A DNA stretch of 64,000 bases from assembly GCF_058153355.1 (NCBI RefSeq), contig NZ_CM177019.1; one strand, written 5' to 3'. Numbering within the stretch: position 1 is the stretch's first letter; each line of letters begins with the position of its first letter. Positions 9,947 through 32,779 of this stretch are shown one piece after another. Position numbers and translations under genes: made by a program. A model generated the notes under the pieces. The model searched no databases and had not been told where the DNA came from. It worked only from the letters and a program-made list of their open reading frames with translations.

Positions 9947-9973
9947 GTAAAAAAAGCCGGATTAACCGGCTTT
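9947..9973 (-). terminator. Rho-independent terminator just downstream of mor (likely end of the Mu early transcript)
   Basis: The minus strand reads AAGCCGG-ttaat-CCGGCTT followed by a T7 run, starting 6 nt after the mor stop. Confidence 0.7.
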
Positions 9974-9978
9974 ACTGT

Positions 9979-10916: not shown

Positions 10917-10985
10917 GATCGTACCTCCGGAAAGAGGCGGTGCTGCAACACCGCCTGAATTTACACATCAATCAGAGAGGATTTT

Positions 10986-11798: not shown

Positions 11799-11982
11799 TC
11801 TGTTCACCTTCACAATTCATGCACGCCGTGTCATCGCCCATATCGCAGTGGTTGCATTTCTGCCCGCCACAATGGGGACACTCTTTCAGATATTCAGGGG
11901 ATTCATTACCGCAGGTCGGGCATTCCTGTTTCACCGTGGTGAATTTCCCCAGCCACGAATACGATGTTTCATTGTTTTCCAT
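11791..11982 (-). CDS. Mu early protein gp13, small zinc-ribbon protein
   Basis: Start chosen at the ATG at 11982 (GGAGG 6 nt upstream): MENNETSYSWLGKFTTVKQECPTCGNESPEYLKECPHCGGQKCNHCDMGDDTACMNCEGEQNE. It has four CxxC-type pairs. Confidence 0.65.
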   Translation of the reverse strand: MENNETSYSWLGKFTTVKQECPTCGNESPEYLKECPHCGGQKCNHCDMGDDTACMNCEGEQNE

Positions 11983-12520
11983 TGTTTGCCTCCGCCTGCT
12001 CCAGTGCCATAACTGGTGCGTCAGAACAGTCAAGAATGAGATAGCGCAGTACATGGTCGGTGATATTCCATGCGCTTGAGCTGCAAATAAAACGCCCCAG
12101 CCGGATATCGATATAAGCCATCACAAAACGGGGCATTCCCTGTTTGCACATCTCGTCATCCACTTCTGCAACGATGTGAACGGATTCACAGGTCAGTACG
12201 CCTGTCGCAAACTCTTTTGCCAGCGCGGGGATAGTATTACCTTCCACCCAGGGTAATGAGCGACGCCAGTTGCACCACACCGCATCATCAACGGCAGGCT
12301 GCTCAGTTGCGTTTCGTCTTACAGGCGGCGTCGGACGCGGGCGCGGAACGTCATAAAATCCGTTGCATTCGGTGAGCACTCCGGCATCAACCGCATCCCG
12401 CAGGAAATACACCATTGACGAGGGCAGCATCTTCATTTTTTCAGCCAGAACCCCGCAGGTCAGACGCCCGTAAGCCAGTAATAATGTGCTGACCCCATTC
12501 AGAACTTTTGCATCAATCAC
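11969..12520 (-). CDS. Mu early protein gp12, unknown function
   Basis: 183-aa ORF packed between gp11 and gp13. Confidence 0.7.
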   Translation of the reverse strand: MIDAKVLNGVSTLLLAYGRLTCGVLAEKMKMLPSSMVYFLRDAVDAGVLTECNGFYDVPRPRPTPPVRRNATEQPAVDDAVWCNWRRSLPWVEGNTIPALAKEFATGVLTCESVHIVAEVDDEMCKQGMPRFVMAYIDIRLGRFICSSSAWNITDHVLRYLILDCSDAPVMALEQAEANNGKQ

Positions 12521-12523
12521 CGG

Positions 12524-13078
12524 TTATTCCTCCGTCAGTGCCACAAATTCAGAATGTTTAATACGCTGGCATTCGGAGGGAACTGGTCCTTTAACCTCAC
12601 CGTCCAGAAGGCGCACCTCAAACAAAATGCCGAATCCATCACGGGTGTGGTGCATCTCCCAGAGCGATTTGAAATCCCACATATTGGGTATGACATCAAC
12701 CCCAAGTTCATTGCACAGCCAGCCCGGAAAATCCGGGTATTTACCGAGCTGATTTTCATAGCCCCGGATAAGCTCCGCGTGTTCCCGGCCTGCTGGTGTT
12801 GTCATATCCGGCATCGCTGCCCATAACTGAATATCACCAATAAAAAGTGTCCTTGATTTAATCTCCCATCCTTCCGGTGGTAAACGGTTAAACCAGACAC
12901 GCGTAACCCTCTCAGGCCCTTTGTCACCAGACAAAAACACACCGCTTGCTTTCACTGATTGCTGTAATGACGCAATAATCTCACCACGCTTAACAGAAAC
13001 CTCTTTCAGCCAGCGAATCGTATAACCGTTAGCGGCTGCGTCACTCAGTTTAAAATAAGCACATGCTTTCATTTTCAT
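12524..13078 (-). CDS. Mu early protein gp11, unknown function
   Basis: 184-aa ORF downstream of gam. Confidence 0.7.
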   Translation of the reverse strand: MKMKACAYFKLSDAAANGYTIRWLKEVSVKRGEIIASLQQSVKASGVFLSGDKGPERVTRVWFNRLPPEGWEIKSRTLFIGDIQLWAAMPDMTTPAGREHAELIRGYENQLGKYPDFPGWLCNELGVDVIPNMWDFKSLWEMHHTRDGFGILFEVRLLDGEVKGPVPSECQRIKHSEFVALTEE

Positions 13079-13169
13079 TCTCTCCGGTTCTGATTAAGGC
13101 GCGAGTCGTCCCCTGACGCATCGCGCCATAATTAAACGAATGTGAATTAATTAAATATTAATGGTGGTA

Positions 13170-13694
13170 TTAAATACCGGCTTCCTGTTCAAACGGAATA
13201 ATGGAAAAATCTTCAATTCCCGATTTAACTGTAATTCCGGCAACACCTGCGACCGCTTTCGGTTCCAGTAAAATCGCTTCCTTGTTGATTTCCTGCTTCG
13301 TGCGAATAAAGCGTTGCAGGCCAAGACGCTCCAGCGTTTCCATCACTGCATCCATACCACGAATACTTACTGATGGTGGACGGACCCGCCACGATACATC
13401 ACCGGTGACAAGATTTGCCGTTTTCACTTTGCCGCCGTTTGTCAGTTCGTCGCGGTTCGCTTCACACCATCCCTGAACGCCTTTTGAAAGGGTTTCAATA
13501 TCGGTTTTAATCGGTGCAATCCGGGCTGCAAATTTCTCCGTAATTTCCGCGATGGCATCATTCATTTCCGTTTCCAGACGTGATGCTTCGCGCTGTAAGT
13601 CCCCGATGCGTTTAATATCGGTAATCACCGCATCGCGGTTTTGTGGCACATAAGCCGCTGCGGCACTTTTGATACGTTTTGCTGGTTTAGCCAT
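13170..13694 (-). CDS. gam: Mu Gam, DNA-end-binding (Ku-like) nuclease inhibitor
   Basis: 174-aa ORF MAKPAKRIKSAAAAYVPQNRDAVITDIKRIGDLQREASRLETEMNDAIAEI... matching my recall of Mu Gam. Confidence 0.93.
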   Translation of the reverse strand: MAKPAKRIKSAAAAYVPQNRDAVITDIKRIGDLQREASRLETEMNDAIAEITEKFAARIAPIKTDIETLSKGVQGWCEANRDELTNGGKVKTANLVTGDVSWRVRPPSVSIRGMDAVMETLERLGLQRFIRTKQEINKEAILLEPKAVAGVAGITVKSGIEDFSIIPFEQEAGI

Positions 13695-13713
13695 AAATTA
13701 AAGCTCCTGTTAA

Positions 13714-14013
13714 TTAATATCCGCTGTATACAATGCTGGATACAGCTCGATTGCTTAATTCCATCTTTCGGGCAATGACATGAATATCCAGCCCTTCTTT
13801 ATAAAGTTCACGACATAAATATTTGTCGTGTTCACTGATTCGGTATACACACAATGATATTCCGTGCCTTCTGGCATGTGCCCGGAGGGCGGTTGTGGCG
13901 ACTTTCAGTTTTTCCGCCATTTCTTCAACGGTCATTTTCCCGACGTTGGCTTCGATAAATTCCCGGTCTTCGCGTGACCAGCGCTTACGATTACACTTCA
14001 TGTCAGCCACCAT
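13714..14013 (-). CDS. Mu early protein gp9, helix-turn-helix-like small protein
   Basis: 99-aa ORF whose ATG abuts the gp8 stop (TGAATG). It contains the HTH-like segment MTVEEMAEKLKVATTALRAHARRHGI. An alternative start lies at 14001. Confidence 0.65.
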   Translation of the reverse strand: MVADMKCNRKRWSREDREFIEANVGKMTVEEMAEKLKVATTALRAHARRHGISLCVYRISEHDKYLCRELYKEGLDIHVIARKMELSNRAVSSIVYSGY

Positions 14014-14433
14014 TCAGTACAGCAGAGGCTCGCGCAGTGATGCCGGAATATGCCGCAGCGATAACTGAACCGCTTTCAGGGCAAGCGAGGAATAACAGCA
14101 GCGCGCCCGGCCTTTTGCCATTAACCGGTAATCGCGCCAGATACGCTGCCACATTTCACGGGCTTCAGGGTCTGATGCGCAGATGTATTCCCGGTCCATG
14201 ACGTACTCCCATAAATCCACGTTGAACGCACCGCCAAATGCAATGGCGCGGGATATGCTTTCGCCGCAATAACGCGCACAGATGCTGTAATGGTCGAAAG
14301 CAATCAGGTAAGTCTTTTCACCACAATCATCAACTTTCCGGGCGTAAATAAATCCGCGTAATTCACCACCGTTGTTATTGCGTCCCTGAATTCGGATTAA
14401 TGCCTGAATTTCATTTCGGATTTTGACGTTCAT
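14014..14433 (-). CDS. Mu early protein gp8, unknown function
   Basis: 139-aa ORF in the early operon. Confidence 0.65.
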   Translation of the reverse strand: MNVKIRNEIQALIRIQGRNNNGGELRGFIYARKVDDCGEKTYLIAFDHYSICARYCGESISRAIAFGGAFNVDLWEYVMDREYICASDPEAREMWQRIWRDYRLMAKGRARCCYSSLALKAVQLSLRHIPASLREPLLY

Positions 14434-14453
14434 TGTCAGCGCTCCTTTGCGAA

Positions 14454-14723
14454 TTAATGTTTAACCGCATTCACCGGATGTGGTACTAAATCACATTCAG
14501 CCTCCATACCCACTTTCTTCATAGTGGTCAGCATCTCATCTTTGGCCTTTTTAATAATTTCAGGAGCCATAGTCAGGACGATATTTGCCAGTAAATCATG
14601 AGGCCCGGTATTTTCCGTTGGCGAGATATCTGCAAGACATGCTTTTGCATCCAGAACTTCTCTGCGCCCATTGCAACCTTCACAACTTTCCAGCCATGTA
14701 AACTCAAAGATAACTTTTGCCAT
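14454..14723 (-). CDS. Mu early protein gp7, unknown function
   Basis: 89-aa ORF in the early operon. Confidence 0.65.
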   Translation of the reverse strand: MAKVIFEFTWLESCEGCNGRREVLDAKACLADISPTENTGPHDLLANIVLTMAPEIIKKAKDEMLTTMKKVGMEAECDLVPHPVNAVKH

Positions 14724-14734
14724 TTTGTTTCCCC

Positions 14735-14989
14735 TTATTGATTCTGAATAACTGCGCTGGCTTTTACCTTCGCGCCTTTTACCTGCTTAAAGAAAACCGC
14801 GCTGCACCACGGACAACATGCAAAGGAGTCCCATACTTCATTTTCTGGTGAGCATTGCGTCATAATTTGCTCTTTGCACTTGGGGCAATTAAATGCAGTC
14901 AGAGCCACATTGTTATTCTGTACCCGTTTAACCCATTCAATATATTTTCCAGCTTTAGTACACATCGTTATCTCCAGATAATCTGGCAA
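14735..14989 (-). CDS. Mu early protein gp6, Cys-pair zinc-ribbon-like
   Basis: 84-aa ORF with CPKC and CCPWC motifs. Confidence 0.65.
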
Positions 14990-15195
14990 CCATTAAGACG
15001 GGCCGTCCATACAGAACGGGCCACCCCGGACTTATGCTCCATAATTCTGACCGCGTTTTTTACCAGTTCCACCGGTGGGTAAGTGATTTCAAGAATCGGA
15101 CGCGCCACGCCGAGATATGATTCATTTACATGACTCCCGCGCGCCTGTAACCAGTTCTGCGCATCCGTTGCCATTTTTATATTTCGGGCCATCAT
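14968..15195 (-). CDS. kil: Mu Kil (gp5), host-killing / cell-division-affecting protein
   Basis: 75-aa ORF that is the first gene after B, which is the position of kil in Mu (recall). Confidence 0.7.
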
Positions 15196-15210
15196 AATTT
15201 CTTCTCCTTC

Positions 15211-16149
15211 TTAATTACGCAGCAGCGTTAAAATATCAACGTCCAGGTCTAATTCACGGAAAGCCTGACGCAGATAATCTTCGTTAACACGCTCACCTTT
15301 ACCATGAGCCGTCATGGCGGCAAGGCGAAGCGAATGATTCAGAATGCGAAGCGCACCGGGTTTCTGTGCAATTTGCTGTAACAACTCCAGTTCTTTTTCG
15401 CCGTTAATATGCCAGGCATCCGCAATAGCTTTTACATCGGCTTTTTTGGTTTTATTAATTGCAGTGGGCTTTGCAATACGGGAAAACAGACGGGCAAATT
15501 CAACCGTTCTGTTGCCCCCCGTCATATTTGAATAAACGCGGTGATTGCCCATCAGCACAAGGCCAGTGCGGGTTGATTCCTGTAACAGGCGGAGTTCTTC
15601 CAGAGCTTCAGCACCAAGATGATCAGCTTCGTCGATGATAACCAGCCCCTGTGTACCTTCAAGGCGGCGTCGCAGGGCGCGGGAGAGCGGCCCTTTACGG
15701 CGTGGTGCGTCATTCATTCCCAGCTCAAACGCCAGTTCAGTAAGACATTCCAGAACGCTGGCACAGGATGGCGTAATGGTGATCATCCAGACATTGTTAT
15801 TGGTGCGGCGATATTCACGGGCCGCTTCGGTTTTGCCCACACCAGGATTGCCACATACAACAGCAATACTTTCAGTCAGGCTGGCAAAACGCATACTTGT
15901 CCAGATTTGTTTTACCGTCTGCGTTTCCACAAAGCGGGGCGGTTCCGGTAGTTCTGCGACTGCATGATATTTTTCCAACCAGCGTTGCAGTATTTGTGCA
16001 ACACGTTCGTTATCCCCGTTGTACTTATCATTGATAAAACTACTGATAGTCCCGGTAGAAAGTCCGCTCTCAAGGGCAATTTGTTTAAAGGTGGTTTCTT
16101 CATTTTCTACAAGGGTGCGCAGTCCTGCGCGAATATCTGAAATATTCAT
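15211..16149 (-). CDS. B: MuB, AAA+ ATP-dependent target DNA activator
   Basis: 312-aa ORF MNISDIRAGLRTLVENEETTFKQIALESGLSTGTISSFINDKYNGDNERV... with Walker A GNPGVGKT and Walker B VIIDEADHL. It matches my recall of MuB. Confidence 0.95.
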   Translation of the reverse strand: MNISDIRAGLRTLVENEETTFKQIALESGLSTGTISSFINDKYNGDNERVAQILQRWLEKYHAVAELPEPPRFVETQTVKQIWTSMRFASLTESIAVVCGNPGVGKTEAAREYRRTNNNVWMITITPSCASVLECLTELAFELGMNDAPRRKGPLSRALRRRLEGTQGLVIIDEADHLGAEALEELRLLQESTRTGLVLMGNHRVYSNMTGGNRTVEFARLFSRIAKPTAINKTKKADVKAIADAWHINGEKELELLQQIAQKPGALRILNHSLRLAAMTAHGKGERVNEDYLRQAFRELDLDVDILTLLRN

Positions 16150-16187
16150 CTGAATAACCTCGTAATTAAATTTTGTTAAAACGTTAA

Positions 16188-18179
16188 TTAAATGACTTTT
16201 TTACGTCTGTTCTGTTCCAGAATATCCAGCGAATGATTCAGATATTCATCACGCTCAGTTTCGTATTCATCATCACGCTCCTGATTCTTCACCCGTTCCG
16301 TATTACCGGAAGGCCGGAAAATGCTTACAATTCGTGATTCTGGTGCTTCAGGTTCGGCTATCTGCGGCAGCAGCTCTGCCACTTCCAGTGCATCCATTTG
16401 TTTCTGTGCCTTAATCGCTGCTTTCGTCGCAGATTTCAGTTGTTTCTGGCGGCGGCGATATTCACGGCCTGCCGCAGCATCATTAAACGCAACAGGTGCC
16501 AGACATTCCGCTTCACAGATAAACCGACCGTCCAGGGTGTAGCAATAAACCGTGCTGTGTAACTGCTGTGGATCAAATCTGACCACAACTTTTTTCACTC
16601 CGGCATTCATTAACGCCATGTTGTAATAAACGTTTTTCGCGCCTTTAAGGGAGCCGCCAACTTTAAGCGCGAACTCGCCTTTACGTGAAACGTTCACCGC
16701 CTCGGCAGGCAGTAACAGCATCCGTTTTTGCTCTTCGGTAGGCTTACGCACAATCGTTCTGGCGTATTCACGCTCAAAAACGTCATCAAACGAAAGTTTG
16801 CCCCCGCACATTTCTGTTTCTCGGCCTGTTCTGGCATTGAACATCGCCACACCTTCGGCAAGGGTTTTCAGAAACAGCTCTGCATCAACAGCGCGGTCGC
16901 CATAGTTATCAGGTTTTGCCTGCGGATTAGGCCCCGTATATGCGCCAGCCAGTGCCGGATGTTTATCAACGTATTCCTCAAGGCCACCAACACCGAAAGC
17001 ACGTTCTACAGGTTTTGCCTGGCCCCAGCCTTTACCGGCAACAACGCTTGTCCAGTGCATGGTCGCCCCCATCAGTAAAAACAGCCCCTTTGGATCGTCC
17101 TCTTTCACCTTAAAGCGGTAGCGATTGGGCGCGCCCCCCGTCAGCCATTTATTCGCAGCACCACGGGTGTTATCAATGGTGATGTGAAAATCCTCCGGGA
17201 TGCCGTAGCGTGTCACTACATCCATGAACGAGAGGCGAATTGAATCGATGTTCTCGCTAACATCGCAGCGCCAGCCCAGAATTTTTCGGGTTTTCACATC
17301 CTGCCAGAACCATGTTTTCGGGCGGATCACATCACCGTTAAACCAGCGTACAAAGACGTTATGCAGATAACCGTCGCCGTTGATCCACTGCATGGCGTCC
17401 AGGTGTTCCACAGTTCGTTGCTGTGCCGGTATCAGATGCATCAGTGCATGTTCACCTTCACGGCAGGCAACAACCATTGCCCCGTCCAGTTGCTGAATCC
17501 GGCGAAATGCCGTGGCTCGGGAGGGAATACTCCAGCCATGCTCGCGGGCTGCCAGTTCCAGACGCTCATAACATTTGCGGAAGGCGGGTTTTTCCGGTCG
17601 CAGATAATCTGCAATCAGAAACTGCCAGGCATCCTCGTCAAATTCACTTTTGTGAACATTGCGACGGGATGCTCCACGTCCATCAACAAGTGCAGCCGCC
17701 CAGTCAGGCTTCGCAAACTTCTGTACCTGGTAATACTTGTCCCGCAAAGTGGATGCGCTGACCTGGTAATGCCCTGCAACGGTCGCAAAAGCCGTTTTCG
17801 TTGAAATCCCCTGGTTCAGCATTTCGTCTGCAGCCTGAACCGCAGGCAACCATTTTTCAGCAAGTCTGCGCTGGGAATCGCTGGCGTTATCCCATTTGCT
17901 CCACAGTGCCTCACGATCATAATCATGGGCTTCCAGCGTGGGGCGGGCGATTTCAAAATACCCCTGACTTGTTTCAATCTCTCCTTGTCTCAGCAATAAC
18001 GCCGCTTTCGCTTCAACAGGTAAAGAGTTCGCATTGTATTCAATTGCTTTACCACCTTTGACACCTGCTCTAGTGCGGTTTTGCCATCCTTGCTTTTTAG
18101 CAACATAAATCACACCAGCCGATGTTTTCGGCAAACCAGGAAGATTCGCACACTCTTTCGGTGATACCCAAAGTTCCAT
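16188..18179 (-). CDS. A: MuA DDE transposase
   Basis: The track ORF (666 aa) is trimmed to [48 protein letters not shown]... (663 aa, the MuA length I recall). Confidence 0.95.
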
Positions 18180-18180
18180 G

Positions 18181-18408
18181 TTATTCACCTGCTTGATATC
18201 GGCTAGGCCAGATTACTTCCGGTTTAGTTTCTAAGGCGTTAGCAATAATCTGCTCACCCTTTGGCCAGTGTCGTTCTAGCGCATTAGCTAATGTAGTTGG
18301 CGCATAACCGAACTGCCGGGAAAGAGCTGATAAAGAGAGCTTTCTTTTCTTAAGTCCCGCAATCACATCCGCTCGATGCCAATCACGGGCCTTTTCGTTG
18401 GAACACAT
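18181..18408 (-). CDS. ner: Mu Ner, Cro-like negative regulator of early transcription
   Basis: 75-aa [55 protein letters not shown]... matching my recall of Ner. Confidence 0.93.
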
Positions 18409-18577
18409 TTAAAAACCCTCCTAAGTTTTGTAATCTATAAAGTTAGCAATTTAACTAAGTGTAAAAACTTAGCTAGCTTGCTAAAAAGATAATTACTGAA
18501 AAGCTTTTTGTAAAGTTACTTTTTAGTAAATTTCTTTGATTACTGATTAATGCATTGATAAATAAGGGGTTTAAATT
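18409..18577. promoter_or_regulatory. Mu c-ner divergent control region: operators O1-O3 / transposition enhancer (IAS), with Pe and Pc promoters
   Basis: AT-rich 169-bp gap between divergent ner and c. Inverted copies of the repressor-site motif I recall (CTTTT-Py-AGTAA) are seen at 18492-18503 (attactgaaaag) and 18519-18530 (ctttttagtaaa). Confidence 0.8.
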
Positions 18578-19168
18578 TTGAAAAGTAACTTTATAGAAAA
18601 AGACGATACTGAAAAGTCAATTTGGTGTTCGCCGCAAGAAATTATGGCTGCTGATGGTATGCCTGGATCTGTTGCTGGTGTTCACTATCGAGCAAATGTT
18701 CAAGGCTGGACGAAGCGAAAAAAGGAAGGTGTCAAGGGGGGGAAAGCTGTTGAATACGATGTGATGTCTATGCCCACCAAAGAACGAGAGCAAGTTATTG
18801 CGCACTTGGGGTTATCCACACCGGATACTGGTGTTCAAGCCAATGAGAAACAGGATTCTTCGGAACTGATAAACAAATTAACCACAACCTTAATCAATAT
18901 GATTGAAGAGCTGGAACCAGATGAAGCACGCAAGGCACTGAAACTTTTAAGTAAAGGGGGGTTGTTGGCGTTAATGCCTCTTGTATTTAATGAACAGAAA
19001 CTTTACAGCTTTATAGGATTTTCACAGCAAAGTATTCAGACGTTGATGATGTTAGATGCATTACCTGAAGAAAAACGCAAAGAGATTTTGTCAAAGTATG
19101 GGATTCATGAACAGGAAAGTGTTGTAGTACCTTCACAGGAACCACAGGAGGTAAAAAAAGCCGTATAA
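18578..19168 (+). CDS. c: Mu repressor c (Repc)
   Basis: 196-aa ORF with a TTG start: MKSNFIEK..TEKSIWCSPQEIMAADGMPGSVAGVHYRANVQGWTKRKKEGVKGGKAVEYDV... It matches my recall of Repc, and its N-terminus is paralogous to the MuA N-terminus in the same window. Confidence 0.95.
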   Translation: MKSNFIEKDDTEKSIWCSPQEIMAADGMPGSVAGVHYRANVQGWTKRKKEGVKGGKAVEYDVMSMPTKEREQVIAHLGLSTPDTGVQANEKQDSSELINKLTTTLINMIEELEPDEARKALKLLSKGGLLALMPLVFNEQKLYSFIGFSQQSIQTLMMLDALPEEKRKEILSKYGIHEQESVVVPSQEPQEVKKAV

Positions 19169-19332
19169 CAACCATGAACCAGCTAAAACATACTTCACCT
19201 CACATAATCACACATGTAACATACCTAAACGGCATAAGCTGATTTGTGATATGAGTCATTTGGTGACAGCCTGGTTGTTATCGGTTTTGAACGTTTTTTG
19301 AAGCTGTTATTGAAATGATTTGCAGTGTTTTT

Positions 19333-19506
19333 GTTTTTCGTATTTTGAATGAAACAAAAGCAATTTTTTACTATCTTTCGCGTTTCATTGATTAACGACT
19401 AAAATTTGCGCTACAGGCTTGCAAGCCCCACCAAATCTAATCCCATCAGATCCCGAATAATCCAATGTCCTCCCGGTTTTTTTCGTACTTCAAGTGAATC
19501 AATACA
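19333..19506 (-). repeat. Mu attL: MuA end-binding sites L1 (about 19477-19506), L2 (about 19374-19395) and L3 (about 19333-19356)
   Basis: Three copies of a related motif are seen: ttttcgtacttcaagtgaatca (L1), tttcgcgtttcattgattaa (L2) and tttcgtattttgaatgaaaca (L3). The terminal ...TACA at 19506 is the complement of the Mu 5'-TGTA end. Confidence 0.85.
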
Positions 19507-19511
19507 CCGGG
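19507..19511. repeat. Presumed 5-bp Mu target-site duplication copy (CCGGG)
   Basis: These are the first five host bases after the Mu end. The sequence fits the preferred Mu target pentamer C-Y-S-R-G (recall). The second copy would lie at the right end, outside the window, so the duplication is unverified. Confidence 0.5.
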
Positions 19512-19540
19512 TATGTCGTTATTCAATAAAGGTGCCTCGT

Positions 19541-20443
19541 ATGCAAATCACCAACATGCATTGCAGTGGACAAACCGTTTCACTTGCCGCGGGGGATTAT
19601 CACGCGACTATCGTGACGGTTGGTGCTGGTCTGGCTGAATTAACTTTTCAGGGTTGTCATTTAGTCATCCCGCACAAACCCGAAGAGATGCCGCTGGCGC
19701 ATCTGGGTAAAGTGCTTATTCCGTGGCCGAACCGGATCGCCAACGGCTGTTACCGCTATCAGGGACAGGAATATCAGTTACCCATTAATGAACATAGTTC
19801 AAAAGCCGCTATTCACGGGCTGCTTGCCTGGCGAGACTGGCAAATTAGCGAATTAACCGCCACCAGCGTTACCCTGACAGCTTTTCTACCGCCCAGTTAC
19901 GGCTATCCGTTTATGCTGGCTTCGCAGGTTGTTTATTCGCTCAATGCTCGCACGGGCCTTTCCGTTGAGATCGCAAGCCAGAATATTGGTACTGTGACCG
20001 CACCTTATGGTGTGGGTATTCATCCTTATTTAACCTGCAACTTAACATCTGTTGATGACTATCTTTTCCAGCTTCCGGCAGAACAGGTTTATGCCGTCGA
20101 TGAGCACGCAAATCCGACAACGCTTCACCACGTTGATGAGCTGAATTTAAATTTCACGCGGGCGACAAAAATAGCCGCGACAAAAATAGACCATACCTTT
20201 AAAACCGCTAATGATCTGTGGGAAATGACCATTACCCATCCACAGCAGGCGCTGTCGGTGAGTCTTTGTTCCGATCAACCCTGGGTGCAGGTTTATAGCG
20301 GCGAAAAATTACAGCGTCAGGGACTGGCAGTTGAACCTATGAGTTGCCCGCCTAACGCCTTTAATTCAGGTATCGACTTATTATTACTGGAACCAGGAAA
20401 AACGCACCGCCTGTTTTTTAATATTCACGGGCAGCACAATTAA
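19541..20443 (+). CDS. yihR: Aldose-1-epimerase family protein YihR (sulfoquinovose mutarotase)
   Basis: The track ORF 19406..20443 is trimmed to the first ATG in host DNA (MQITNMHCSGQTVSLAAGDYHATIVTVGAGLAELTF...). It has galactose-mutarotase-like motifs and lies next to yihQ. Confidence 0.85.
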   Translation: MQITNMHCSGQTVSLAAGDYHATIVTVGAGLAELTFQGCHLVIPHKPEEMPLAHLGKVLIPWPNRIANGCYRYQGQEYQLPINEHSSKAAIHGLLAWRDWQISELTATSVTLTAFLPPSYGYPFMLASQVVYSLNARTGLSVEIASQNIGTVTAPYGVGIHPYLTCNLTSVDDYLFQLPAEQVYAVDEHANPTTLHHVDELNLNFTRATKIAATKIDHTFKTANDLWEMTITHPQQALSVSLCSDQPWVQVYSGEKLQRQGLAVEPMSCPPNAFNSGIDLLLLEPGKTHRLFFNIHGQHN

Positions 20444-20503: not shown

Positions 20504-21379
20504 ATGGACTTTTTTACGTTATTTTCGCCAGATGGGGCCATGCTGGAAACAAACGTGGTATGTATCGTTATCGCGTTGATGTTTCTTTATACCTTTGTGG
20601 GGATATGCGCGGGATTTGGTGGCGGTTTAACCACCATGCCACTCGTCACGTTAATGCTCCCCGTAAAAATGGCAACACCACTTTCGGTAATTGTCGGCAC
20701 CGCAACCGCCTTGTACGCCACCTGGCTATCACGCAAAGAAACGGATTGGCGCTCGGCAATGGTGCTGATTATTTTCTCATTTTTGGGAATACCCGTCGGT
20801 TTATATGCGCTGTCATATTTACCCGACCATTTTATGAAAGTGGGCTTAGGTGGATTTCTTATCCTCTACTCCTTTTACAGCATGTTTATTCCTCGCTTGC
20901 CGATTTATGACCGTAACTGGATCGCCGCACCTATCGGCGCAGTAGCTGGCGCATTAGGCGCGGCGTTCTCAACCAACGGGCCGCCGATGGTTATCTACGG
21001 GATGCTGCGTAACTTAGGTCCGGCGGCATTTCGCGGCACTCTGAACGCTTTCTTCACCGCAAACAACATCGCGGTGATCGGCGGGCTGGCGACCAGCGGA
21101 ATTTTGACTGTTTCTATCTTTAAACTGGTGCTGTTTTGTATTCCCACCATGATCCTCGGTTCACTGATTGGACAATATGTGCATAAACGCATTTCGGTCA
21201 AAGTGTTTCGTGTGATGGTCTTTTTATTGTTGATTGCCTCCGGTTCTATGTTGATAAAAGGTGCGTTGGGAATTCCCGCCGCTGCCGCACTTCTGCCTCC
21301 GTTTACCTTGTTAGTTATACTGCAACTGGCATTTGGTAAAAAAGTGGCGGCAATCCGCCGGGCTGAAGAAAGTAAATAA
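20504..21379 (+). CDS. TSUP (TauE/SafE) family anion permease
   Basis: 291-aa polytopic membrane protein with the Gly-rich motif GICAGFGGGLTTMPL and an internal repeat (second half ...APIGAVAGALGAAFSTNGPPMV). AGGAAA lies upstream of the ATG. Confidence 0.8.
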   Translation: MDFFTLFSPDGAMLETNVVCIVIALMFLYTFVGICAGFGGGLTTMPLVTLMLPVKMATPLSVIVGTATALYATWLSRKETDWRSAMVLIIFSFLGIPVGLYALSYLPDHFMKVGLGGFLILYSFYSMFIPRLPIYDRNWIAAPIGAVAGALGAAFSTNGPPMVIYGMLRNLGPAAFRGTLNAFFTANNIAVIGGLATSGILTVSIFKLVLFCIPTMILGSLIGQYVHKRISVKVFRVMVFLLLIASGSMLIKGALGIPAAAALLPPFTLLVILQLAFGKKVAAIRRAEESK

Positions 21380-21485: not shown

Positions 21486-23522
21486 ATGGATACGCCACGC
21501 CCACAGTTATTAGATTTTCAATTTCATCAGAATAACGACAGTTTTACTCTACGTTTTCAAGACCGTCTTATTTTAATCCATAGCAAAGATAATCCTTGCT
21601 TATCGATTGGCTCAGGTATAGCGGATATCGATATGTTCCGCGGTAATTTCAGCATTAAAGATAAATTGCAGGAGAAGATTGCGCTCACCGACGCCATCGT
21701 CAGCCAGTCACCGGATGGCTGGTTAATCCATTTCAGCCGTGGTTCTGACATTAGCGCCACGCTGCGTATCTCTGCCGACGATCAGGGCCGTTTATTGCTG
21801 GAACTACAAAACGACAACCATCACCACAACCGCATCTGGCTGCGTCTTGCCGCACAACCAGAGGACCATATCTACGGCTGCGGCGAACAATTCTCCTACT
21901 TTGATCTGCGCGGCAAACCGTTCCCGCTATGGACCAGTGAACAAGGCGTTGGTCGCAACAAACAAACCTATGTCACCTGGCAGGCCGACTGCAAAGAGAA
22001 CGCGGGCGGCGACTATTACTGGACTTTCTTCCCGCAGCCTACTTTTGTCAGCACGCAGAAGTATTACTGCCATGTCGATAACAGCTGCTATATGAACTTC
22101 GACTTCAGTGCTCCGGAATACCATGAACTGGCATTGTGGGAAGACAATGCCACCCTGCGTTTTGAATGTGCGGACACATACATCTCCCTGTTGGAAAAAT
22201 TAACCGCCCTGCTGGGACGTCAGCCAGAACTGCCCGACTGGATTTATGACGGGGTAACGCTAGGTATTCAGGGCGGGACAGATGTATGCCAGAAGAAACT
22301 GGATACCATGCGTAACGCGGGTGTGAAGGTCAACGGCATCTGGGCGCAGGACTGGTCCGGGATCCGCATGACCTCGTTTGGCAAACGTGTGATGTGGAAC
22401 TGGAAGTGGAACAGTGAAAACTACCCACAGTTAGATTCCCGCATCAAGCAATGGAAAGAAGAAGGCGTGCAGTTCCTCGCCTACATCAACCCGTATGTTG
22501 CCAGCGATAAGGACCTCTGCGCCGAGGCGGCTTCACATGGCTATCTGGCAAAAGATGCCTCTGGCGGTGACTATCTGGTGGAATTTGGGGAGTTTTACGG
22601 CGGCGTTGTCGATTTGACCAATCCTGAAGCATATTCCTGGTTCAAAGAAGTCATCAAGAAAAACATGATCGAATTGGGCTGCGGCGGCTGGATGGCAGAT
22701 TTTGGCGAATACTTGCCGACCGATACGTATCTGCATAACGGCGTTAGCGCCGAAATTATGCATAACGCCTGGCCCGCACTGTGGGCGAAATGTAACTACG
22801 AAGCCCTTGAAGAAACGGGCAAGCTTGGCGAGATCCTTTTCTTTATGCGCGCCGGTTCTACCGGTAGCCAGAAATACTCCACCATGATGTGGGCGGGCGA
22901 CCAGAACGTCGACTGGAGTCTGGACGATGGCCTGGCGTCGGTTGTTCCGGCGGCGCTCTCGCTGGCGATGACCGGGCATGGCCTGCATCACAGTGACATT
23001 GGCGGTTACACCACCCTGTTTGAGATGAAGCGCAGCAAAGAGCTGCTGCTGCGCTGGTGCGATTTCAGCGCCTTCACGCCGATGATGCGCACCCACGAAG
23101 GTAACCGTCCTGGCGACAACTGGCAGTTTGACGGCGACGCGGAAACCATCGCCCATTTTGCCCGTATGACCACCGTCTTCACCACCCTGAAACCTTACCT
23201 CAAAGACGCCGTCGCGCTGAATGCGAAGTCCGGCCTGCCGGTTATGCGCCCGCTGTTCCTGCATTACGAAGACGACGCGCAGACCTACACCCTGAAATAT
23301 CAGTACCTGTTAGGCCGCGACATTCTGGTCGCTCCGGTGCATGAACAAGGCCGTAGCGACTGGACGCTCTATCTGCCGGAGGATAACTGGGTCCACGCCT
23401 GGACAGGTGAAGCGTTCCGGGGCGGGGAAGTTACCGTTAATGCGCCCATCGGTAAACCGCCGGTCTTTTATCGCGCCGATAGCGAATGGGCGGCACTGTT
23501 CGCGTCGTTAAAAAGCATCTAA
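21486..23522 (+). CDS. yihQ: GH31 sulfoquinovosidase YihQ
   Basis: 678-aa ORF with GH31 motifs (GIWAQDWSG, GWMADFGEYLP, WAGDQNVDW). Length and context match E. coli YihQ. Confidence 0.93.
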   Translation: MDTPRPQLLDFQFHQNNDSFTLRFQDRLILIHSKDNPCLSIGSGIADIDMFRGNFSIKDKLQEKIALTDAIVSQSPDGWLIHFSRGSDISATLRISADDQGRLLLELQNDNHHHNRIWLRLAAQPEDHIYGCGEQFSYFDLRGKPFPLWTSEQGVGRNKQTYVTWQADCKENAGGDYYWTFFPQPTFVSTQKYYCHVDNSCYMNFDFSAPEYHELALWEDNATLRFECADTYISLLEKLTALLGRQPELPDWIYDGVTLGIQGGTDVCQKKLDTMRNAGVKVNGIWAQDWSGIRMTSFGKRVMWNWKWNSENYPQLDSRIKQWKEEGVQFLAYINPYVASDKDLCAEAASHGYLAKDASGGDYLVEFGEFYGGVVDLTNPEAYSWFKEVIKKNMIELGCGGWMADFGEYLPTDTYLHNGVSAEIMHNAWPALWAKCNYEALEETGKLGEILFFMRAGSTGSQKYSTMMWAGDQNVDWSLDDGLASVVPAALSLAMTGHGLHHSDIGGYTTLFEMKRSKELLLRWCDFSAFTPMMRTHEGNRPGDNWQFDGDAETIAHFARMTTVFTTLKPYLKDAVALNAKSGLPVMRPLFLHYEDDAQTYTLKYQYLLGRDILVAPVHEQGRSDWTLYLPEDNWVHAWTGEAFRGGEVTVNAPIGKPPVFYRADSEWAALFASLKSI

Positions 23523-23567: not shown

Positions 23568-24953
23568 ATGAGTCACATCACAACGGAAGATCCGGCTACT
23601 TTACGTCTGCCCTTTAAAGAGAAACTCTCTTACGGTATCGGCGATCTGGCCTCTAACATCCTGCTGGATATCGGCACGCTTTATCTTTTGAAGTTTTATA
23701 CCGACGTTCTGGGGCTGCCCGGTACCTATGGCGGCATTATCTTTTTGATTTCGAAGTTCTTTACTGCGTTTACCGATATGGGTACCGGCATCATGCTCGA
23801 TTCCCGACGCAAGATCGGTCCAAAAGGTAAGTTCCGTCCTTTTATTCTGTATGCGTCATTCCCGGTCACCTTACTGGCGATCGCCAACTTTGTCGGCACA
23901 CCGTTTGATGTCACCGGTAAAACGGTGATGGCCACTATCCTGTTTATGCTCTACGGGCTGTTTTTCAGCATGATGAACTGCTCTTATGGCGCAATGGTCC
24001 CCGCTATTACCAAAAACCCCAACGAACGCGCATCACTGGCGGCATGGCGTCAGGGTGGCGCTACATTGGGCCTGCTGCTTTGTACGGTGGGATTCGTGCC
24101 GGTTATGAATCTTATCGAGGGTAATCAGCAACTTGGCTATATCTTCGCCGCCACGCTGTTTTCACTGTTCGGCCTGCTGTTTATGTGGATCTGCTATTCG
24201 GGCGTGAAAGAGCGTTATGTCGAAACGCAACCTGCAAATCCGGCGCAAAAGCCTGGCTTGTTGCAGTCTTTCCGCGCAATTGCGGGTAACCGCCCACTGT
24301 TCATTCTGTGTATTGCCAACCTCTGCACCTTAGGGGCGTTTAACGTCAAGCTCGCCATCCAGGTCTATTACACCCAGTACGTACTTAACGATCCCATCCT
24401 GTTGTCGTATATGGGATTTTTCAGCATGGGCTGTATTTTCATCGGCGTGTTCCTGATGCCTGGCGCAGTCAGACGTTTTGGTAAGAAGAAGGTCTATATC
24501 GGCGGTCTGCTGATCTGGGTGCTGGGCGATCTGCTCAACTATTTCTTCGGCGGCGGCTCGGTTAGCTTTGTGGCGTTCTCCTGCCTGGCATTCTTCGGCT
24601 CGGCGTTTGTTAACAGCCTGAACTGGGCACTGGTTTCTGACACCGTCGAGTACGGCGAGTGGCGCACCGGTGTGCGTTCGGAAGGTACGGTCTACACCGG
24701 CTTCACCTTCTTTCGCAAAGTTTCTCAGGCGCTGGCAGGCTTCTTCCCTGGCTGGATGCTGACGCAAATCGGCTATGTACCAAACGTCGCCCAGGCTGAC
24801 CACACCATTGAAGGGTTGCGCCAGCTGATCTTCATCTACCCAAGCGCACTGGCGGTAGTCACCATTGTTGCGATGGGTTGCTTCTACAGCCTGAACGAGA
24901 AGATGTACGTCCGCATTGTAGAAGAAATAGAAGCCCGTAAACGCACGGCATAA
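23568..24953 (+). CDS. yihP: GPH-family (glycoside-pentoside-hexuronide) transporter YihP
   Basis: Start chosen at the ATG at 23568 (AGGGAG upstream), giving 461 aa. It is a paralogue of the next gene. Confidence 0.9.
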   Translation: MSHITTEDPATLRLPFKEKLSYGIGDLASNILLDIGTLYLLKFYTDVLGLPGTYGGIIFLISKFFTAFTDMGTGIMLDSRRKIGPKGKFRPFILYASFPVTLLAIANFVGTPFDVTGKTVMATILFMLYGLFFSMMNCSYGAMVPAITKNPNERASLAAWRQGGATLGLLLCTVGFVPVMNLIEGNQQLGYIFAATLFSLFGLLFMWICYSGVKERYVETQPANPAQKPGLLQSFRAIAGNRPLFILCIANLCTLGAFNVKLAIQVYYTQYVLNDPILLSYMGFFSMGCIFIGVFLMPGAVRRFGKKKVYIGGLLIWVLGDLLNYFFGGGSVSFVAFSCLAFFGSAFVNSLNWALVSDTVEYGEWRTGVRSEGTVYTGFTFFRKVSQALAGFFPGWMLTQIGYVPNVAQADHTIEGLRQLIFIYPSALAVVTIVAMGCFYSLNEKMYVRIVEEIEARKRTA

Positions 24954-24993
24954 ATAATAAACAACGCCCTGCGGGGCGTTATAAGGAGTGATT

Positions 24994-26397
24994 ATGTCTG
25001 ACCATAATCCACTGACATTAAAACTGAATCTGCGGGAAAAAATCGCTTATGGCATGGGCGACGTCGGTTCGAATTTAATGCTTAGCATCGGCACTCTGTA
25101 TCTCCTCAAATTTTATACCGATGAATTAGGGATGCCTGCTTACTATGGCGGGATTATCTTTCTGGTGGCGAAATTCTTTACCGCGTTTACCGATATGCTC
25201 ACCGGATTTTTACTCGACTCGCGGAAAAATATTGGGCCTAAAGGCAAATTTCGTCCCTTTATTTTATATGCAGCGGTTCCGGCGGCGTTAATTGCAACGC
25301 TCCAGTTTATCGCCACCACTTTTAGTTTGCCGATTAAAACGACGATTGCCACCGCGCTGTTTATGATGTTTGGACTTTCATACAGTCTGATGAACTGCTC
25401 GTATGGCGCGATGATCCCAGCAATTACCAAAAACCCCAATGAGCGCGCGCAGCTTGCGGCTTACCGCCAGGGTGGTGCAACCATAGGGCTATTGATTTGT
25501 ACCGTAGCATTTATTCCATTGCAGTCGCTTTTTTCTGACTCCACTGTCGGTTATGCCTGCGCGGCACTGATGTTCTCCATTGGTGGCTTTATTTTTATGA
25601 TGCTGTGCTACAGAGGCGTCAAAGAGCATTATGTGGACACGACGCCAACCGGACATAAAGCCAGTATTCTCAAATCTTTTTGCGCGATATTTCGTAATCC
25701 GCCATTGCTGGTTTTATGCATTGCTAACCTGTGTACCCTGGCGGCATTTAATATCAAACTGGCAATTCAGGTCTATTACACCCAGTATGTGCTGAATGAT
25801 ATTAATTTATTGTCGTGGATGGGATTCTTCAGTATGGGATGCATCCTCATCGGCGTATTGCTGGTGCCATTAACTGTAAAATATTTTGGTAAAAAACAGG
25901 TTTATTTAGCTGGCATGGTGCTGTGGGCGGTGGGGGATATCCTGAATTATTTCTGGGGCAGTAACTCTTTCACTTTCGTCATGTTCTCTTGTGTCGCCTT
26001 TTTTGGTACGGCCTTTGTAAACAGCCTGAACTGGGCGCTGGTACCGGATACCGTAGATTATGGTGAATGGAAAACAGGTATACGTGCCGAAGGTTCTGTT
26101 TATACCGGTTATACCTTCTTTCGTAAAATTTCAGCCGCACTTGCTGGCTTCTTGCCAGGCATTATGCTGACGCAAATCGGTTATGTTCCCAACATCGCGC
26201 AAAGCGATGCAACATTACAGGGTTTGCGTCAGCTCATTTTTATTTGGCCTTGTGCGCTGGCGATAATTGCTGCATTGACGATGGGATTCTTTTACACGCT
26301 CAATGAAAAACGTTTTGCGATGATTATTGAGGAAGTTAACCAACGCAAAAATAAAGAAATTAAGACAGAAGAAAAAACGGCTTCCGTAACGTTATAA
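24994..26397 (+). CDS. yihO: GPH-family sulfoquinovose importer YihO
   Basis: Start chosen at the ATG at 24994 (AAGGAG 5 nt upstream), giving 467 aa. It shares long identical blocks with YihP (LYLLKFYTD, GKFRPFILYA, MNCSYGAM.PAITKNPNERA). Confidence 0.9.
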   Translation: MSDHNPLTLKLNLREKIAYGMGDVGSNLMLSIGTLYLLKFYTDELGMPAYYGGIIFLVAKFFTAFTDMLTGFLLDSRKNIGPKGKFRPFILYAAVPAALIATLQFIATTFSLPIKTTIATALFMMFGLSYSLMNCSYGAMIPAITKNPNERAQLAAYRQGGATIGLLICTVAFIPLQSLFSDSTVGYACAALMFSIGGFIFMMLCYRGVKEHYVDTTPTGHKASILKSFCAIFRNPPLLVLCIANLCTLAAFNIKLAIQVYYTQYVLNDINLLSWMGFFSMGCILIGVLLVPLTVKYFGKKQVYLAGMVLWAVGDILNYFWGSNSFTFVMFSCVAFFGTAFVNSLNWALVPDTVDYGEWKTGIRAEGSVYTGYTFFRKISAALAGFLPGIMLTQIGYVPNIAQSDATLQGLRQLIFIWPCALAIIAALTMGFFYTLNEKRFAMIIEEVNQRKNKEIKTEEKTASVTL

Positions 26398-26463
26398 AAA
26401 CAATAGCCGCTATGACCATCTACAGGGATGGCGGCCTTCCTACATATAAAAAATGGATTTAAT

Positions 26464-27156
26464 ATGAAAAAGTTAAATGCAATAATTTTATTATCCTCTC
26501 TGACTTCCGCATCGGTATTCGCAGGCGCATACGTCGAAAACAGGGAGGCATATAATCTCGCCTCCGATCAGGGCGAGGTTATGCTACGTGTGGGTTATAA
26601 CTTCGATATGGGCGCGGGTATCATGTTAACCAATACCTACAACTTTCAGCGAGAAGATGAACTAAAACATGGATATAACGAAATCGAAGGTTGGTATCCT
26701 TTATTTAAACCAACCGATAAATTAACCATCCAGCCCGGTGGCTTAATTAATGATAAGAGCGCCGGTTCCGGTGGTGCTGTTTATCTGGATGTTAACTACA
26801 AATTTGCCCCGTGGTTTAACCTGACGGTACGCAACCGTTTTAACCATAATAACTACAGCACAACCGATTTAAACGGTGATCTGGATAATAATGACAGCTA
26901 CGAGATTGGTAACTACTGGAACTTTATTATTACCGATAAGTTCTCATATACCTTTGAACCGCATTATTTTTATAATATTAATGATTTCAACAGCAGCAAT
27001 GGCACCAAGCATCACTGGGAAATCACTAACACCTTCCGTTACCGAATTAATGAGCACTGGCTGCCCTATATTGAATTGCGCTGGTTAGACCGCAACGTCG
27101 AGCCGTACCACCGCGAGCAAAACCAGATCCGTATCGGGACGAAGTATTTCTTCTGA
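26464..27156 (+). CDS. ompL: Outer membrane porin OmpL
   Basis: Start chosen at MKKLNAIILLSSLTSASVFA (signal peptide), giving 230 aa. It has the terminal aromatic ...GTKYFF typical of a beta-barrel. Confidence 0.9.
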   Translation: MKKLNAIILLSSLTSASVFAGAYVENREAYNLASDQGEVMLRVGYNFDMGAGIMLTNTYNFQREDELKHGYNEIEGWYPLFKPTDKLTIQPGGLINDKSAGSGGAVYLDVNYKFAPWFNLTVRNRFNHNNYSTTDLNGDLDNNDSYEIGNYWNFIITDKFSYTFEPHYFYNINDFNSSNGTKHHWEITNTFRYRINEHWLPYIELRWLDRNVEPYHREQNQIRIGTKYFF

Positions 27157-32778: not shown

Positions 32779-32779
32779 C

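What the first reader, a model, noticed from the sequence alone, without database searches (positions are those of the whole stretch)
19477..19545. Mu prophage inserted 34 bp upstream of yihR, splitting the sulfoquinovose catabolic cluster
Seen in sequence:
- The Mu left terminus (...gtgaatcaataca) ends at 19506.
- Host DNA resumes with CCGGG, which fits the preferred Mu target pentamer CYSRG.
- The yihR ATG follows at 19541.

In the K-12 order yihS precedes yihR on the same strand, so ~37 kb of phage now separates yihS (beyond the window) from yihR, the TSUP gene, yihQ, yihP and yihO. This would be expected to be polar on any co-transcription.

All Mu ORFs in the window are intact. The repressor has Arg at residue 47, the residue I recall being changed in the thermo-inducible cts62 lab allele. 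This looks like a wild-type, potentially inducible prophage rather than a mini-Mu tool.
Basis: partly seen in the sequence, partly recalled or inferred. Interest (0 to 1): 0.6.

Follow-up and report, generated by a model that had tools for sequence, protein, structure and literature searches.

The report
Wild Mu-type prophage beside yihR
A natural relative of the transposing phage Mu has landed in the 67-bp gap between two sulfoquinovose-utilisation genes (yihS and yihR) of a wild E. coli; this is an ordinary example of what Mu-type phages do.

Summary
Window 1-19506, read on the minus strand, is the left 19.5 kb of a Mu-family prophage. Its terminus TGTATTGATTCAC... ends exactly at 19506. E. 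coli DNA resumes at 19507 with CCGGG, one of the eight CYSRG consensus target pentamers, and the yihR ATG lies 34 bp further on at 19541.

In uninterrupted E. coli genomes this point lies in a 67-bp yihS-yihR spacer. No complete E. coli genome carries this junction.

The element is not laboratory Mu:
- It is 97.5% identical to Mu cts62 over 94% of the left half.
- Three semi-essential genes are swapped or missing.
- It has Mu-type immunity, with the wild-type Arg47 repressor.
- Every recognisable Mu gene in the window is full length.

An independent Logan assembly (SRR31441161) reproduces the junction at 100% identity. It carries the prophage a further 12.45 kb, up to the G-segment boundary.

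The right junction could not be retrieved, so neither the 5-bp duplication nor adjacency to yihS was seen. Four of four related prophages have perfect duplications, which makes a simple insertion very likely.

A polar effect on yihR-TauE-yihQPO-ompL is plausible but untested. The kind of event is already well known, so interest is low.

The parts
1..19506 (-). Left 19.5 kb of a Mu-family (Muvirus) prophage, from inside major head gene T to the left terminus. Gene order is c, ner, A, B, kil, the semi-essential region, gemA, mor, C, lys, then head genes through I.
   Evidence: It is 97.5% identical to Mu over 94% of its length, and the best phage hits are Yersinia phages vB_YpM_23 and vB_YpM_3 at 98.1% identity over 98%. 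Full-length tblastn matches without stops were found for 29 Mu proteins. Collinear blastn blocks are listed.
19307..19506 (-). Mu left end (attL), ending in the terminal 5'-TG. By my own knowledge of Mu, not tested here, this stretch holds the MuA-binding sites L1-L3.
   Evidence: 198 of 200 nt are identical to the Mu reference left end.
18578..19168 (+). c repressor, 196 aa, Mu immunity type, with wild-type Arg47. It is transcribed towards the left end, in the same direction as yihR.
   Evidence: It is 98% identical at the amino-acid level to Mu c, differing at residues 9, 10, 47 and 86. Mu cts62 has Q47, and the E. coli W prophage has R47. Pfam assigns HTH_Tnp_Mu_1.
18181..18408 (-). ner, the negative regulator of early transcription
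   Evidence: 100% amino-acid identity to Mu Ner.
16188..18179 (-). MuA DDE transposase, 663 aa
   Evidence: 98.9% amino-acid identity over the full length. Pfam assigns DDE_2 and Mu-transpos_C. This exact allele was found on only one public contig.
15211..16149 (-). MuB target-capture ATPase, 312 aa
   Evidence: 97.8% amino-acid identity over the full length. Pfam assigns Phage-MuB_C.
11490..14723 (-). Mosaic part of the semi-essential early region. Mu gp7 and gp12 are replaced by other phage ORFs (window 14454-14723, 12524-13078 and about 11490-11798). Mu gp19 is absent further right.
   Evidence: tblastn finds no match for gp7, gp12 or gp19, and blastn shows gaps between the collinear blocks. 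The replacement ORFs match PHROGs 2230, 2260 and 1988, all of unknown function.
19507..19511 (.). CCGGG, the target pentamer next to the left end. It is presumed to be one copy of the 5-bp target-site duplication.
   Evidence: It is present once at the empty site. It matches 5'-CYSRG, the Mu consensus, which is preferred 7-fold in vivo (PMC7350765).
19512..19540 (+). The remaining 29 bp of the native yihS-yihR spacer, including the ribosome-binding region of yihR
   Evidence: Identical to the empty site in Z0117EC0005.
19541..20443 (+). yihR, sulfoquinovose mutarotase (aldose 1-epimerase), 300 aa, intact
   Evidence: RefSeq annotation of the collinear genome. Pfam Aldose_epim, E = 3.5e-59.
20504..21379 (+). 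TauE/SafE (TSUP) family transporter gene, 291 aa. It is absent from K-12.
   Evidence: Pfam TauE, E = 2.4e-35. It is present in 1,287 of 5,426 complete E. coli genomes. K-12 has only a 198-bp gap at this position.
21486..23522 (+). yihQ, sulfoquinovosidase (GH31), 678 aa, intact
23568..27156 (+). yihP (23568-24953), yihO (24994-26397) and ompL (26464-27156), all at full length
   Evidence: Gene calls on the 100%-identical Logan contig L004, mapped as window = 28180 minus the L004 coordinate. The lengths equal the RefSeq annotation.

Best explanation
A temperate transposable phage of the Mu species group infected a wild E. coli. It has Mu-type c/ner immunity and a mosaic semi-essential region.

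It integrated by MuA-catalysed transposition into the pentamer CCGGG, in the 67-bp spacer between yihS and yihR of the sulfo-EMP (yih) cluster. The phage lies with its left (c) end towards yihR. It is about 37 kb long, and its early and late genes run antisense to the yih genes.

It is maintained as a repressed prophage by a wild-type (Arg47) repressor. Its immediate effect is physical: yihR-TauE-yihQ-yihP-yihO-ompL are separated from yihUTS, and from the only known CsqR-controlled promoter region, the yihU/V spacer.

What is shown:
- the left junction;
- the target site;
- intact phage genes across 19.5 kb;
- continuation of the prophage to at least 31.96 kb.

What is inferred:
- the right junction, with a CCGGG duplication next to yihS;
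- loss of sulfoquinovose-inducible read-through into yihR and the genes downstream;
- the ability of the prophage to be induced.
For: - Left junction and empty site.
- Mu identity and full-length genes.
- Mu-type rather than D108/SfMu-type immunity: D108 and SfMu align only from about 1508 onward, while c is 98% and ner 100% identical to Mu.
- Not laboratory Mu: 97.5% identity, mosaic blocks, and R47 against Q47 in Mu cts62 = NC_000929 (PMC4406740).
- Independent assembly: Logan SRR31441161 contig 60 is 100% identical to window 6188-28179. It runs 12,452 bp beyond the window start, to prophage coordinate 31,958. The Mu G-segment boundary is at 31,966.
- Late genes: a nearly identical prophage (3 mismatches in 11,465 bp) has all late genes from T to gp45 at Mu-like lengths. 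The SRR31441161 contig was collapsed with it as a 'similar place'.
- Target: CCGGG is a CYSRG consensus site (PMC7350765).
- Precedent: 4 of 4 related full-length prophages in complete E. coli genomes are simple insertions of 36.7-37.2 kb with perfect 5-bp duplications.
- Regulation in K-12: CsqR binds only the yihU/V spacer (PMC8249747). Yet yihR, yihQ, yihP, yihO and ompL are induced on sulfoquinovose (yihQ by qRT-PCR, the others at log2 fold change of 5 or more by RNA-seq) (PMC12608037), which fits read-through.
- No sigma-70-like promoter was found by consensus scan in the native 67-bp spacer.
Against: - The right end and the yihS flank are not in the window and could not be retrieved. A Mu-mediated deletion, inversion or other rearrangement is therefore not excluded.
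- The G segment, gin, com, mom and attR were not seen.
- Kaznadzey et al. 2018 (PMC5816610) report RNA polymerase binding in the K-12 yihS/R spacer and carbon-source-independent yihR expression. yihR may therefore not depend on upstream transcription, although the K-12 spacer carries an extra insert with a TTGACA that this lineage lacks.
- The native spacer has a hairpin after yihS that might already limit read-through.
- Strains with a short cassette still grow on sulfoquinovose (PMC12608037), so any phenotype could be small.
Confidence: 0.85

Rival explanations
1. The Mu left end abuts yihR because of a Mu-mediated rearrangement (adjacent deletion, inversion or replicon fusion after transposition). 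In that case yihS is not at the other end, or there is no matching 5-bp duplication.
For: Only one junction is visible. By general knowledge, replicative Mu transposition can produce such rearrangements. The right junction was not found in any searchable collection.
Against: Four of four related natural prophages are simple insertions with perfect duplications. The host side is fully collinear with other E. coli genomes for 44.5 kb. The prophage is continuous to the G segment on the Logan contig. The break falls exactly at a consensus target inside an otherwise unaltered spacer.
Confidence: 0.07
2. It is a laboratory construct or laboratory lysogen, such as Mu cts62, a Mud/mini-Mu derivative, or S17-1-type integrated Mu, rather than a natural prophage.
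For: Mu is a common genetic tool. Laboratory strains such as S17-1 appear among the hits.
Against: Identity to the Mu cts62 reference is only 97.5%, with three replaced or absent genes. The repressor has Arg47, not the Gln47 of cts62. The left 19.5 kb carries no marker genes. The host is a non-K-12 E. coli, carrying the TauE gene and an STM4011-4015-type cluster.
Confidence: 0.03
3. The junction is an assembly chimera that joins a Mu prophage located elsewhere to the yih locus.
For: Mobile elements are frequent sites of misassembly. The Logan contig may derive from the same reads as the window, so the data may not be independent.
Against: A different assembler reproduces 22 kb across the junction at 100% identity. 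The breakpoint is base-exact at the Mu terminus and at a consensus target pentamer, which a chimera would not produce.
Confidence: 0.02
4. The insertion is real but functionally neutral. Under this reading, yihR and the downstream genes have their own promoters, or receive outward transcription from the repressor gene, so sulfoquinovose use is unaffected.
For: RNA polymerase binds the K-12 yihS/R spacer and yihR was reported to be independently transcribed (PMC5816610). The c gene points towards yihR, with no terminator-like site in the 372 bp between its stop codon and the yihR ATG. All downstream yih genes are intact.
Against: The insertion lies 34 bp from the ATG, so any spacer promoter would lose its upstream half. 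No promoter-like site was found in this lineage's spacer. CsqR has a single binding region, at yihU/V (PMC8249747). From my own recollection, classical genetics found Mu insertions strongly polar in both orientations.
Confidence: 0.3

Closest known systems
Escherichia phage Mu (Muvirus mu; reference NC_000929 / AF083977 = Mu cts62)
   Same: - The left terminus is the same: 198 of 200 nt.
- It has the same c/ner immunity type, with c 98% and ner 100% identical at the amino-acid level.
- MuA is 98.9% and MuB 97.8% identical.
- Gene order is the same through the head genes.
- The target pentamer fits the consensus.

   Different: - Nucleotide identity is 97.5% over 94% of the left half.
- gp7 and gp12 are replaced, gp19 is absent and gp6 is only 76% identical.
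- The repressor has Arg47 (wild type) instead of Gln47, plus N9D, N10D and A86V.

Natural Mu-like prophages of E. coli (E. coli W, Z0117EC0098, APEC E19057 and isolate 30602_1#64) and Yersinia phages vB_YpM_23 and vB_YpM_3
   Same: They are 97-98% identical over 94-98% of the left half. They are the same kind of element, scattered at unrelated chromosomal sites as simple insertions of 36.7-37.2 kb with 5-bp duplications.
   Different: None sits in the yih cluster. None of the four inspected shares this particular combination of semi-essential ORFs. The exact MuA allele occurs on only one public contig.
D108 and SfMu, the other Muvirus immunity type
   Same: The late genes and most early genes are 96-97% identical from about 1.5 kb onward.
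   Different: Their repressor, ner and operator region does not align with this prophage. SfMu's repressor is only 24% identical to Mu c (PMC4406740).
Structural variants of the E. coli yih (sulfo-EMP) cassette (Kaznadzey et al. 2025, PMC12608037)
   Same: This is another way in which the long cassette ompL-yihOPQRSTUVW is disrupted in a natural strain. That paper already describes the locus as evolutionarily labile.
   Different: Here the change is a prophage insertion between yihS and yihR, not the recombinational short form (yihTUVW). This cassette also carries a TauE gene, which the paper does not mention.

Membership tests
Muvirus (transposable phage Mu group) | Left terminal sequence beginning 5'-TG, with the MuA-binding end region | tested here: met
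   198 of 200 nt are identical to the Mu left end, and the terminus lies at window 19506.
Muvirus (transposable phage Mu group) | DDE transposase MuA together with the MuB ATPase | tested here: met
   Both are full length, at 98.9% and 97.8% amino-acid identity. The Pfam domains are DDE_2, Mu-transpos_C and Phage-MuB_C.
Muvirus (transposable phage Mu group) | Mu-type immunity region (c repressor and ner), as opposed to the D108/SfMu type | tested here: met
   c is 98% and ner 100% identical to Mu. D108 and SfMu align only from about 1508 onward.
Muvirus (transposable phage Mu group) | Mu gene order: early, semi-essential, mor, C, lysis, head, tail | tested here: met
   This holds for the 19.5 kb in the window. 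The tail genes are supported indirectly by a near-identical contig and by the length of the Logan contig.
Muvirus (transposable phage Mu group) | 5-bp target-site duplication flanking both ends | not testable with these tools
   Only the left junction is in the window, and the right junction was not found in any collection. The target CCGGG fits CYSRG. Four of four relatives have perfect duplications.
Muvirus (transposable phage Mu group) | Right end with the invertible G segment, gin, com/mom and attR | not testable with these tools
   This lies outside the window. The only hint is that the Logan contig stops at prophage coordinate 31,958, the G-segment boundary.
Laboratory Mu cts62 and its mini-Mu / Mud derivatives | Gln47 (cts62) in the repressor and essentially 100% identity to AF083977 | tested here: not met
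   The repressor has Arg47. Identity is 97.5% with mosaic replacements.
E. coli sulfo-EMP (yih) long cassette | Intact ompL, yihO, yihP, yihQ and yihR on one strand | tested here: met
   Gene calls give 230, 467, 461, 678 and 300 aa, equal to the RefSeq lengths. Pfam assigns Aldose_epim to yihR.
E. coli sulfo-EMP (yih) long cassette | yihS, yihT, yihU, yihV and csqR adjacent and upstream of yihR | not testable with these tools
   These would lie beyond the prophage, outside the window. They are present in that position in collinear genomes.
E. coli sulfo-EMP (yih) long cassette | Exact K-12 gene order, with yihR directly followed by yihQ | tested here: not met
   A TauE/SafE gene lies between yihR and yihQ. 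This variant is found in 1,287 of 5,426 complete genomes but not in K-12.

The most novel reading that the evidence does not exclude
Because the constitutively expressed repressor gene points out of the left end towards yihR, and no terminator-like site intervenes, the lysogen may express yihR-TauE-yihQPO-ompL at a low level that is independent of CsqR and coupled to phage immunity. That would make the prophage rewire the regulation of sulfoquinovose uptake and hydrolysis, rather than simply silence it.
Probability: 0.08. Interest if true: 0.35.

Novelty: new member of a known kind. Interest (0 to 1): 0.15.

Why it matters
It matters little beyond the strain itself. The window documents a natural, apparently complete Mu-immunity prophage with a wild-type repressor. 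It also shows one more way in which the already labile yih cluster is broken up in wild E. coli.

The strain could serve as a source of a wild Mu variant, or as a natural polar-insertion test of whether yihR through ompL are co-transcribed with yihUTS. The kind of event is textbook: near-random Mu insertion at a CYSRG site.

Tried and rejected
1. Predicted right junction (host …ACATGCCGGG joined to TGAAGCGGCGCA…):
- The scan of GTDB species representatives gave one hit, in Phaeovulum sp. The flanking sequence shows it is a chance match, not Mu.
- IMG/VR and JGI metagenomes gave none.

2. Left junction pattern: absent from IMG/VR and from JGI metagenomes.

3. Walking along the Logan assembly:
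- Look-ups are limited to proteins encoded in the window, so the contig holding gin, mom, attR and yihS could not be reached.
- The exact gp30 allele proved too common to isolate the sample. It is listed in 316 blocks and the look-up returned ten other genomes.
- I decided against search for homologous proteins for Mom, Com or YihS. Cluster representatives would either not be this strain's allele or be too common to be read.

4. Papers: Shimada et al. 2019 (CsqR) and Vogel et al. 1991 (cts mutations) are not held. The operon structure is therefore taken from papers that cite them. That cts62 is R47Q rests on NC_000929 being Mu cts62 (PMC4406740) plus my own recollection.

5. Terminators: a scan between c and yihR found none. 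This is weak negative evidence only.

6. Scripts: the first ones failed because several loci are stored per file. This was resolved.

Full report
**Observation**

Read on the minus strand from 19506, the window gives TGTATTGATTCACTTGAAGTACGAAAAAAACCGGGAGG..., which matches 198 of the first 200 nt of the Mu left end.

A 451-bp query across the junction was run against 5,426 complete E. coli genomes. It matched host DNA only from window 19507 onward, in 3,926 genomes, and no record covered the junction.

In strain Z0117EC0005, which is 100% identical over those 244 bp, the uninterrupted site reads yihS-TAA, 33 bp, CCGGG, 29 bp, ATG-yihR. The spacer is therefore 67 bp. The Mu terminus abuts CCGGG and the yihR ATG is at 19541, 34 bp from the phage end.

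CCGGG is one of the eight 5'-CYSRG pentamers. Deep sequencing found these to be preferred about 7-fold in vivo (PMC7350765).

**What the element is**

Window 1-19506 is 97.5% identical to Escherichia phage Mu over 94% of its length. The best phage matches are Yersinia phages vB_YpM_23 and vB_YpM_3, at 98.1% identity over 98%. D108 and SfMu align only from about 1.5 kb inward, so the immunity region is of the Mu type.

Translated searches with the Mu reference proteins gave end-to-end matches without stop codons for these genes:
- c (98%), ner (100%), A (98.9%), B (97.8%) and kil;
- gp6 (76%), gp8, gp9, gam, gp11 and gp13-gp18;
- gp20, C, lys, gp23-gp30, G and I.

T is cut by the window edge. 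Mu gp7, gp12 and gp19 have no counterpart. The nucleotide alignment shows replaced blocks there, and the substitute ORFs belong to phage families of unknown function. This is mosaicism typical of the semi-essential region, not decay.

The repressor has Arg47. The reference genome NC_000929, which is Mu cts62 (PMC4406740), has Gln47, and the natural E. coli W prophage has Arg47.

**Beyond the window**

The exact MuA protein occurs on one public contig only, Logan SRR31441161_60, which is 45,261 bp long. Its fetched 21,992 bp are 100% identical to window 6188-28179.

From the coordinate mapping, that contig runs 12,452 bp upstream of the window start. It ends at prophage coordinate 31,958, and the Mu G-segment boundary is at 31,966. 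That is where a short-read assembler would be expected to break.

The gene I protein is found on that contig and on SRR28786219_211. The latter differs from the window by 3 mismatches in 11,465 bp. It carries T through gp45 with Mu-like lengths, up to coordinate 29.1 kb.

So the right half is not deleted, at least up to the G segment. The G segment, gin, com, mom, attR and the yihS flank were not seen.

**The right junction**

I predicted it as …CTACATGCCGGG|TGAAGCGGCGCACG… The results were:
- one chance hit among the GTDB representatives, in Phaeovulum, with a non-Mu flank;
- nothing in IMG/VR or in JGI metagenomes;
- the left junction is also absent from those two collections.

As a substitute I measured the base rate. 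Four related full-length prophages in complete genomes (E. coli W, Z0117EC0098, 30602_1#64 and APEC E19057) are all 36.7-37.2 kb. All have perfect 5-bp duplications that fit N-Y-S-R-N, and in three of them RefSeq annotates the two halves of the same host gene on either side of the prophage.

Together with 44.5 kb of uninterrupted collinearity on the host side, this makes a simple insertion very likely, at about 0.85-0.9. It is not proof.

**Host and cluster**

The host part is ordinary E. coli. It is 97-99% identical to and collinear with Z0117EC0005: yihR, TauE, yihQ, yihP, yihO, ompL, an STM4015-4011-type cluster, typA, glnALG and so on, through an rrn operon to fadB. All downstream yih genes are at full length.

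yihS precedes yihR on the same strand in K-12 and in the relatives. K-12 lacks the TauE gene, which is present in 1,287 of 5,426 complete genomes. K-12 also has a longer yihS-yihR spacer, 113 bp against 67 bp, with an extra repeat-like insert.

**Consequences (inferred)**

The prophage lies with c towards yihR, so the phage lytic genes are antisense to the yih genes.

Evidence bearing on polarity:
- In K-12, CsqR binds only the yihU/V spacer (PMC8249747, PMC8006165).
- Nevertheless yihR, yihQ, yihP, yihO and ompL are induced on sulfoquinovose; yihQ by qRT-PCR, the others at log2 fold change of 5 or more by RNA-seq (PMC12608037). This fits read-through from the yihU promoter.
- Kaznadzey et al. 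2018 report RNA polymerase binding in the K-12 yihS/R spacer and carbon-source-independent yihR expression (PMC5816610).
- In this lineage the spacer lacks the K-12 insert and its TTGACA. A consensus scan shows no promoter-like site there. It does contain a hairpin, CGGCAT-N10-ATGCCG, whose 3' arm overlaps the target pentamer.

Thirty-seven kilobases of antisense phage DNA should stop any transcription arriving from yihS. The insertion would also remove the upstream half of any spacer promoter. Loss of sulfoquinovose-inducible expression of yihR through ompL is therefore plausible but untested.

No terminator-like site lies between the c stop codon (19168) and yihR. Weak outward transcription from the repressor gene is therefore conceivable. 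I rate this as unlikely to matter, because from recollection classical work found Mu insertions strongly polar in both orientations.

Strains with the short cassette still grow on sulfoquinovose (PMC12608037), so the phenotype may be mild. Mu avoids actively transcribed DNA (PMC7350765), which fits insertion into a repressed cluster.

**Comparison and verdict**

This is a new member of a well-known kind: a natural Muvirus prophage with Mu immunity, at a new and apparently strain-private site. About 36 of 5,426 complete E. coli genomes carry a prophage matching at least 80% of this left half. One head-protein allele occurs in hundreds of assemblies. The yih locus is already known to be labile (PMC12608037).

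Its interpretation is supported, with the caveats that the right junction is unseen, that the phage is a Mu variant rather than Mu itself, and that polarity is conditional. Interest is low.

Noticed in passing
window 20504-21379: A TauE/SafE (TSUP) transporter gene sits between yihR and yihQ. K-12 has only a 198-bp gap there. The gene is present in 1,287 of 5,426 complete E. coli genomes, including O157:H7. The 2025 paper on yih cassette variants (PMC12608037) does not mention TauE at all. It could be a sulfonate or sulfite exporter belonging to the pathway.
   Followed up: partly
L005 (K-12) 10403-10515 compared with L001 5968-6034 and window 19507-19540: The yihS-yihR spacer differs between lineages. 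In K-12 it is 113 bp and carries a repeat-like insert (…CCCCTCTCCCTAACCCTCTCCCCAAAGGGGCGAGGGG…) and a TTGACA. In this lineage it is 67 bp. Published K-12 promoter data for this spacer therefore may not transfer.
   Followed up: partly
L001 5982-6003, the empty site; its 3' end corresponds to window 19507-19509: The native spacer contains an inverted repeat, CGGCAT-N10-ATGCCG, just after yihS. The Mu target pentamer overlaps its 3' arm. The scan flags it as terminator-like only on the opposite strand.
   Followed up: no
window 11490-14723 and about 9559-9690: The semi-essential region of the prophage is mosaic relative to Mu. gp7 and gp12 are replaced by ORFs of PHROGs 2230 and 2260, an extra ORF of PHROG 1988 is present, gp19 is absent, and gp6 is only 76% identical. 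All the replacement ORFs are of unknown function.
   Followed up: partly
L007 (Logan SRR28786219 contig 211): A second public sample carries a prophage with only 3 mismatches in 11,465 bp to the window. One mismatch changes gp30 S412R and two lie in the G-I intergenic region. That contig breaks at prophage coordinate about 7,361, and the exact MuA allele is not found there. Its early region or its insertion site is therefore probably different.
   Followed up: partly
window about 27,340-32,780: Between ompL and typA this strain has a five-gene cluster of the STM4015-STM4011 family (two radical SAM proteins, hydrolases and a Cof-type HAD) where K-12 has yihL, yihM and yihN. This is inferred from collinearity with Z0117EC0005. 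The Logan contig ends just after the cluster, at window 32,809.
   Followed up: no
window about 52,170-57,270: An rRNA operon (5S, 23S, tRNA-Ala, tRNA-Ile, 16S on the minus strand) lies near the end of the window, followed by hemG, trkH, yigZ, pepQ and the start of fadB. Positions come from mapping onto the annotated relative.
   Followed up: no
L006 (E. coli W, NC_017635.1 about 292,800-329,516): The E. coli W prophage is exactly 36,717 bp long, the same length as the Mu reference. It scores the same as Mu against the window, has the wild-type Arg47 repressor, and is flanked by a GCCGC duplication.
   Followed up: partly
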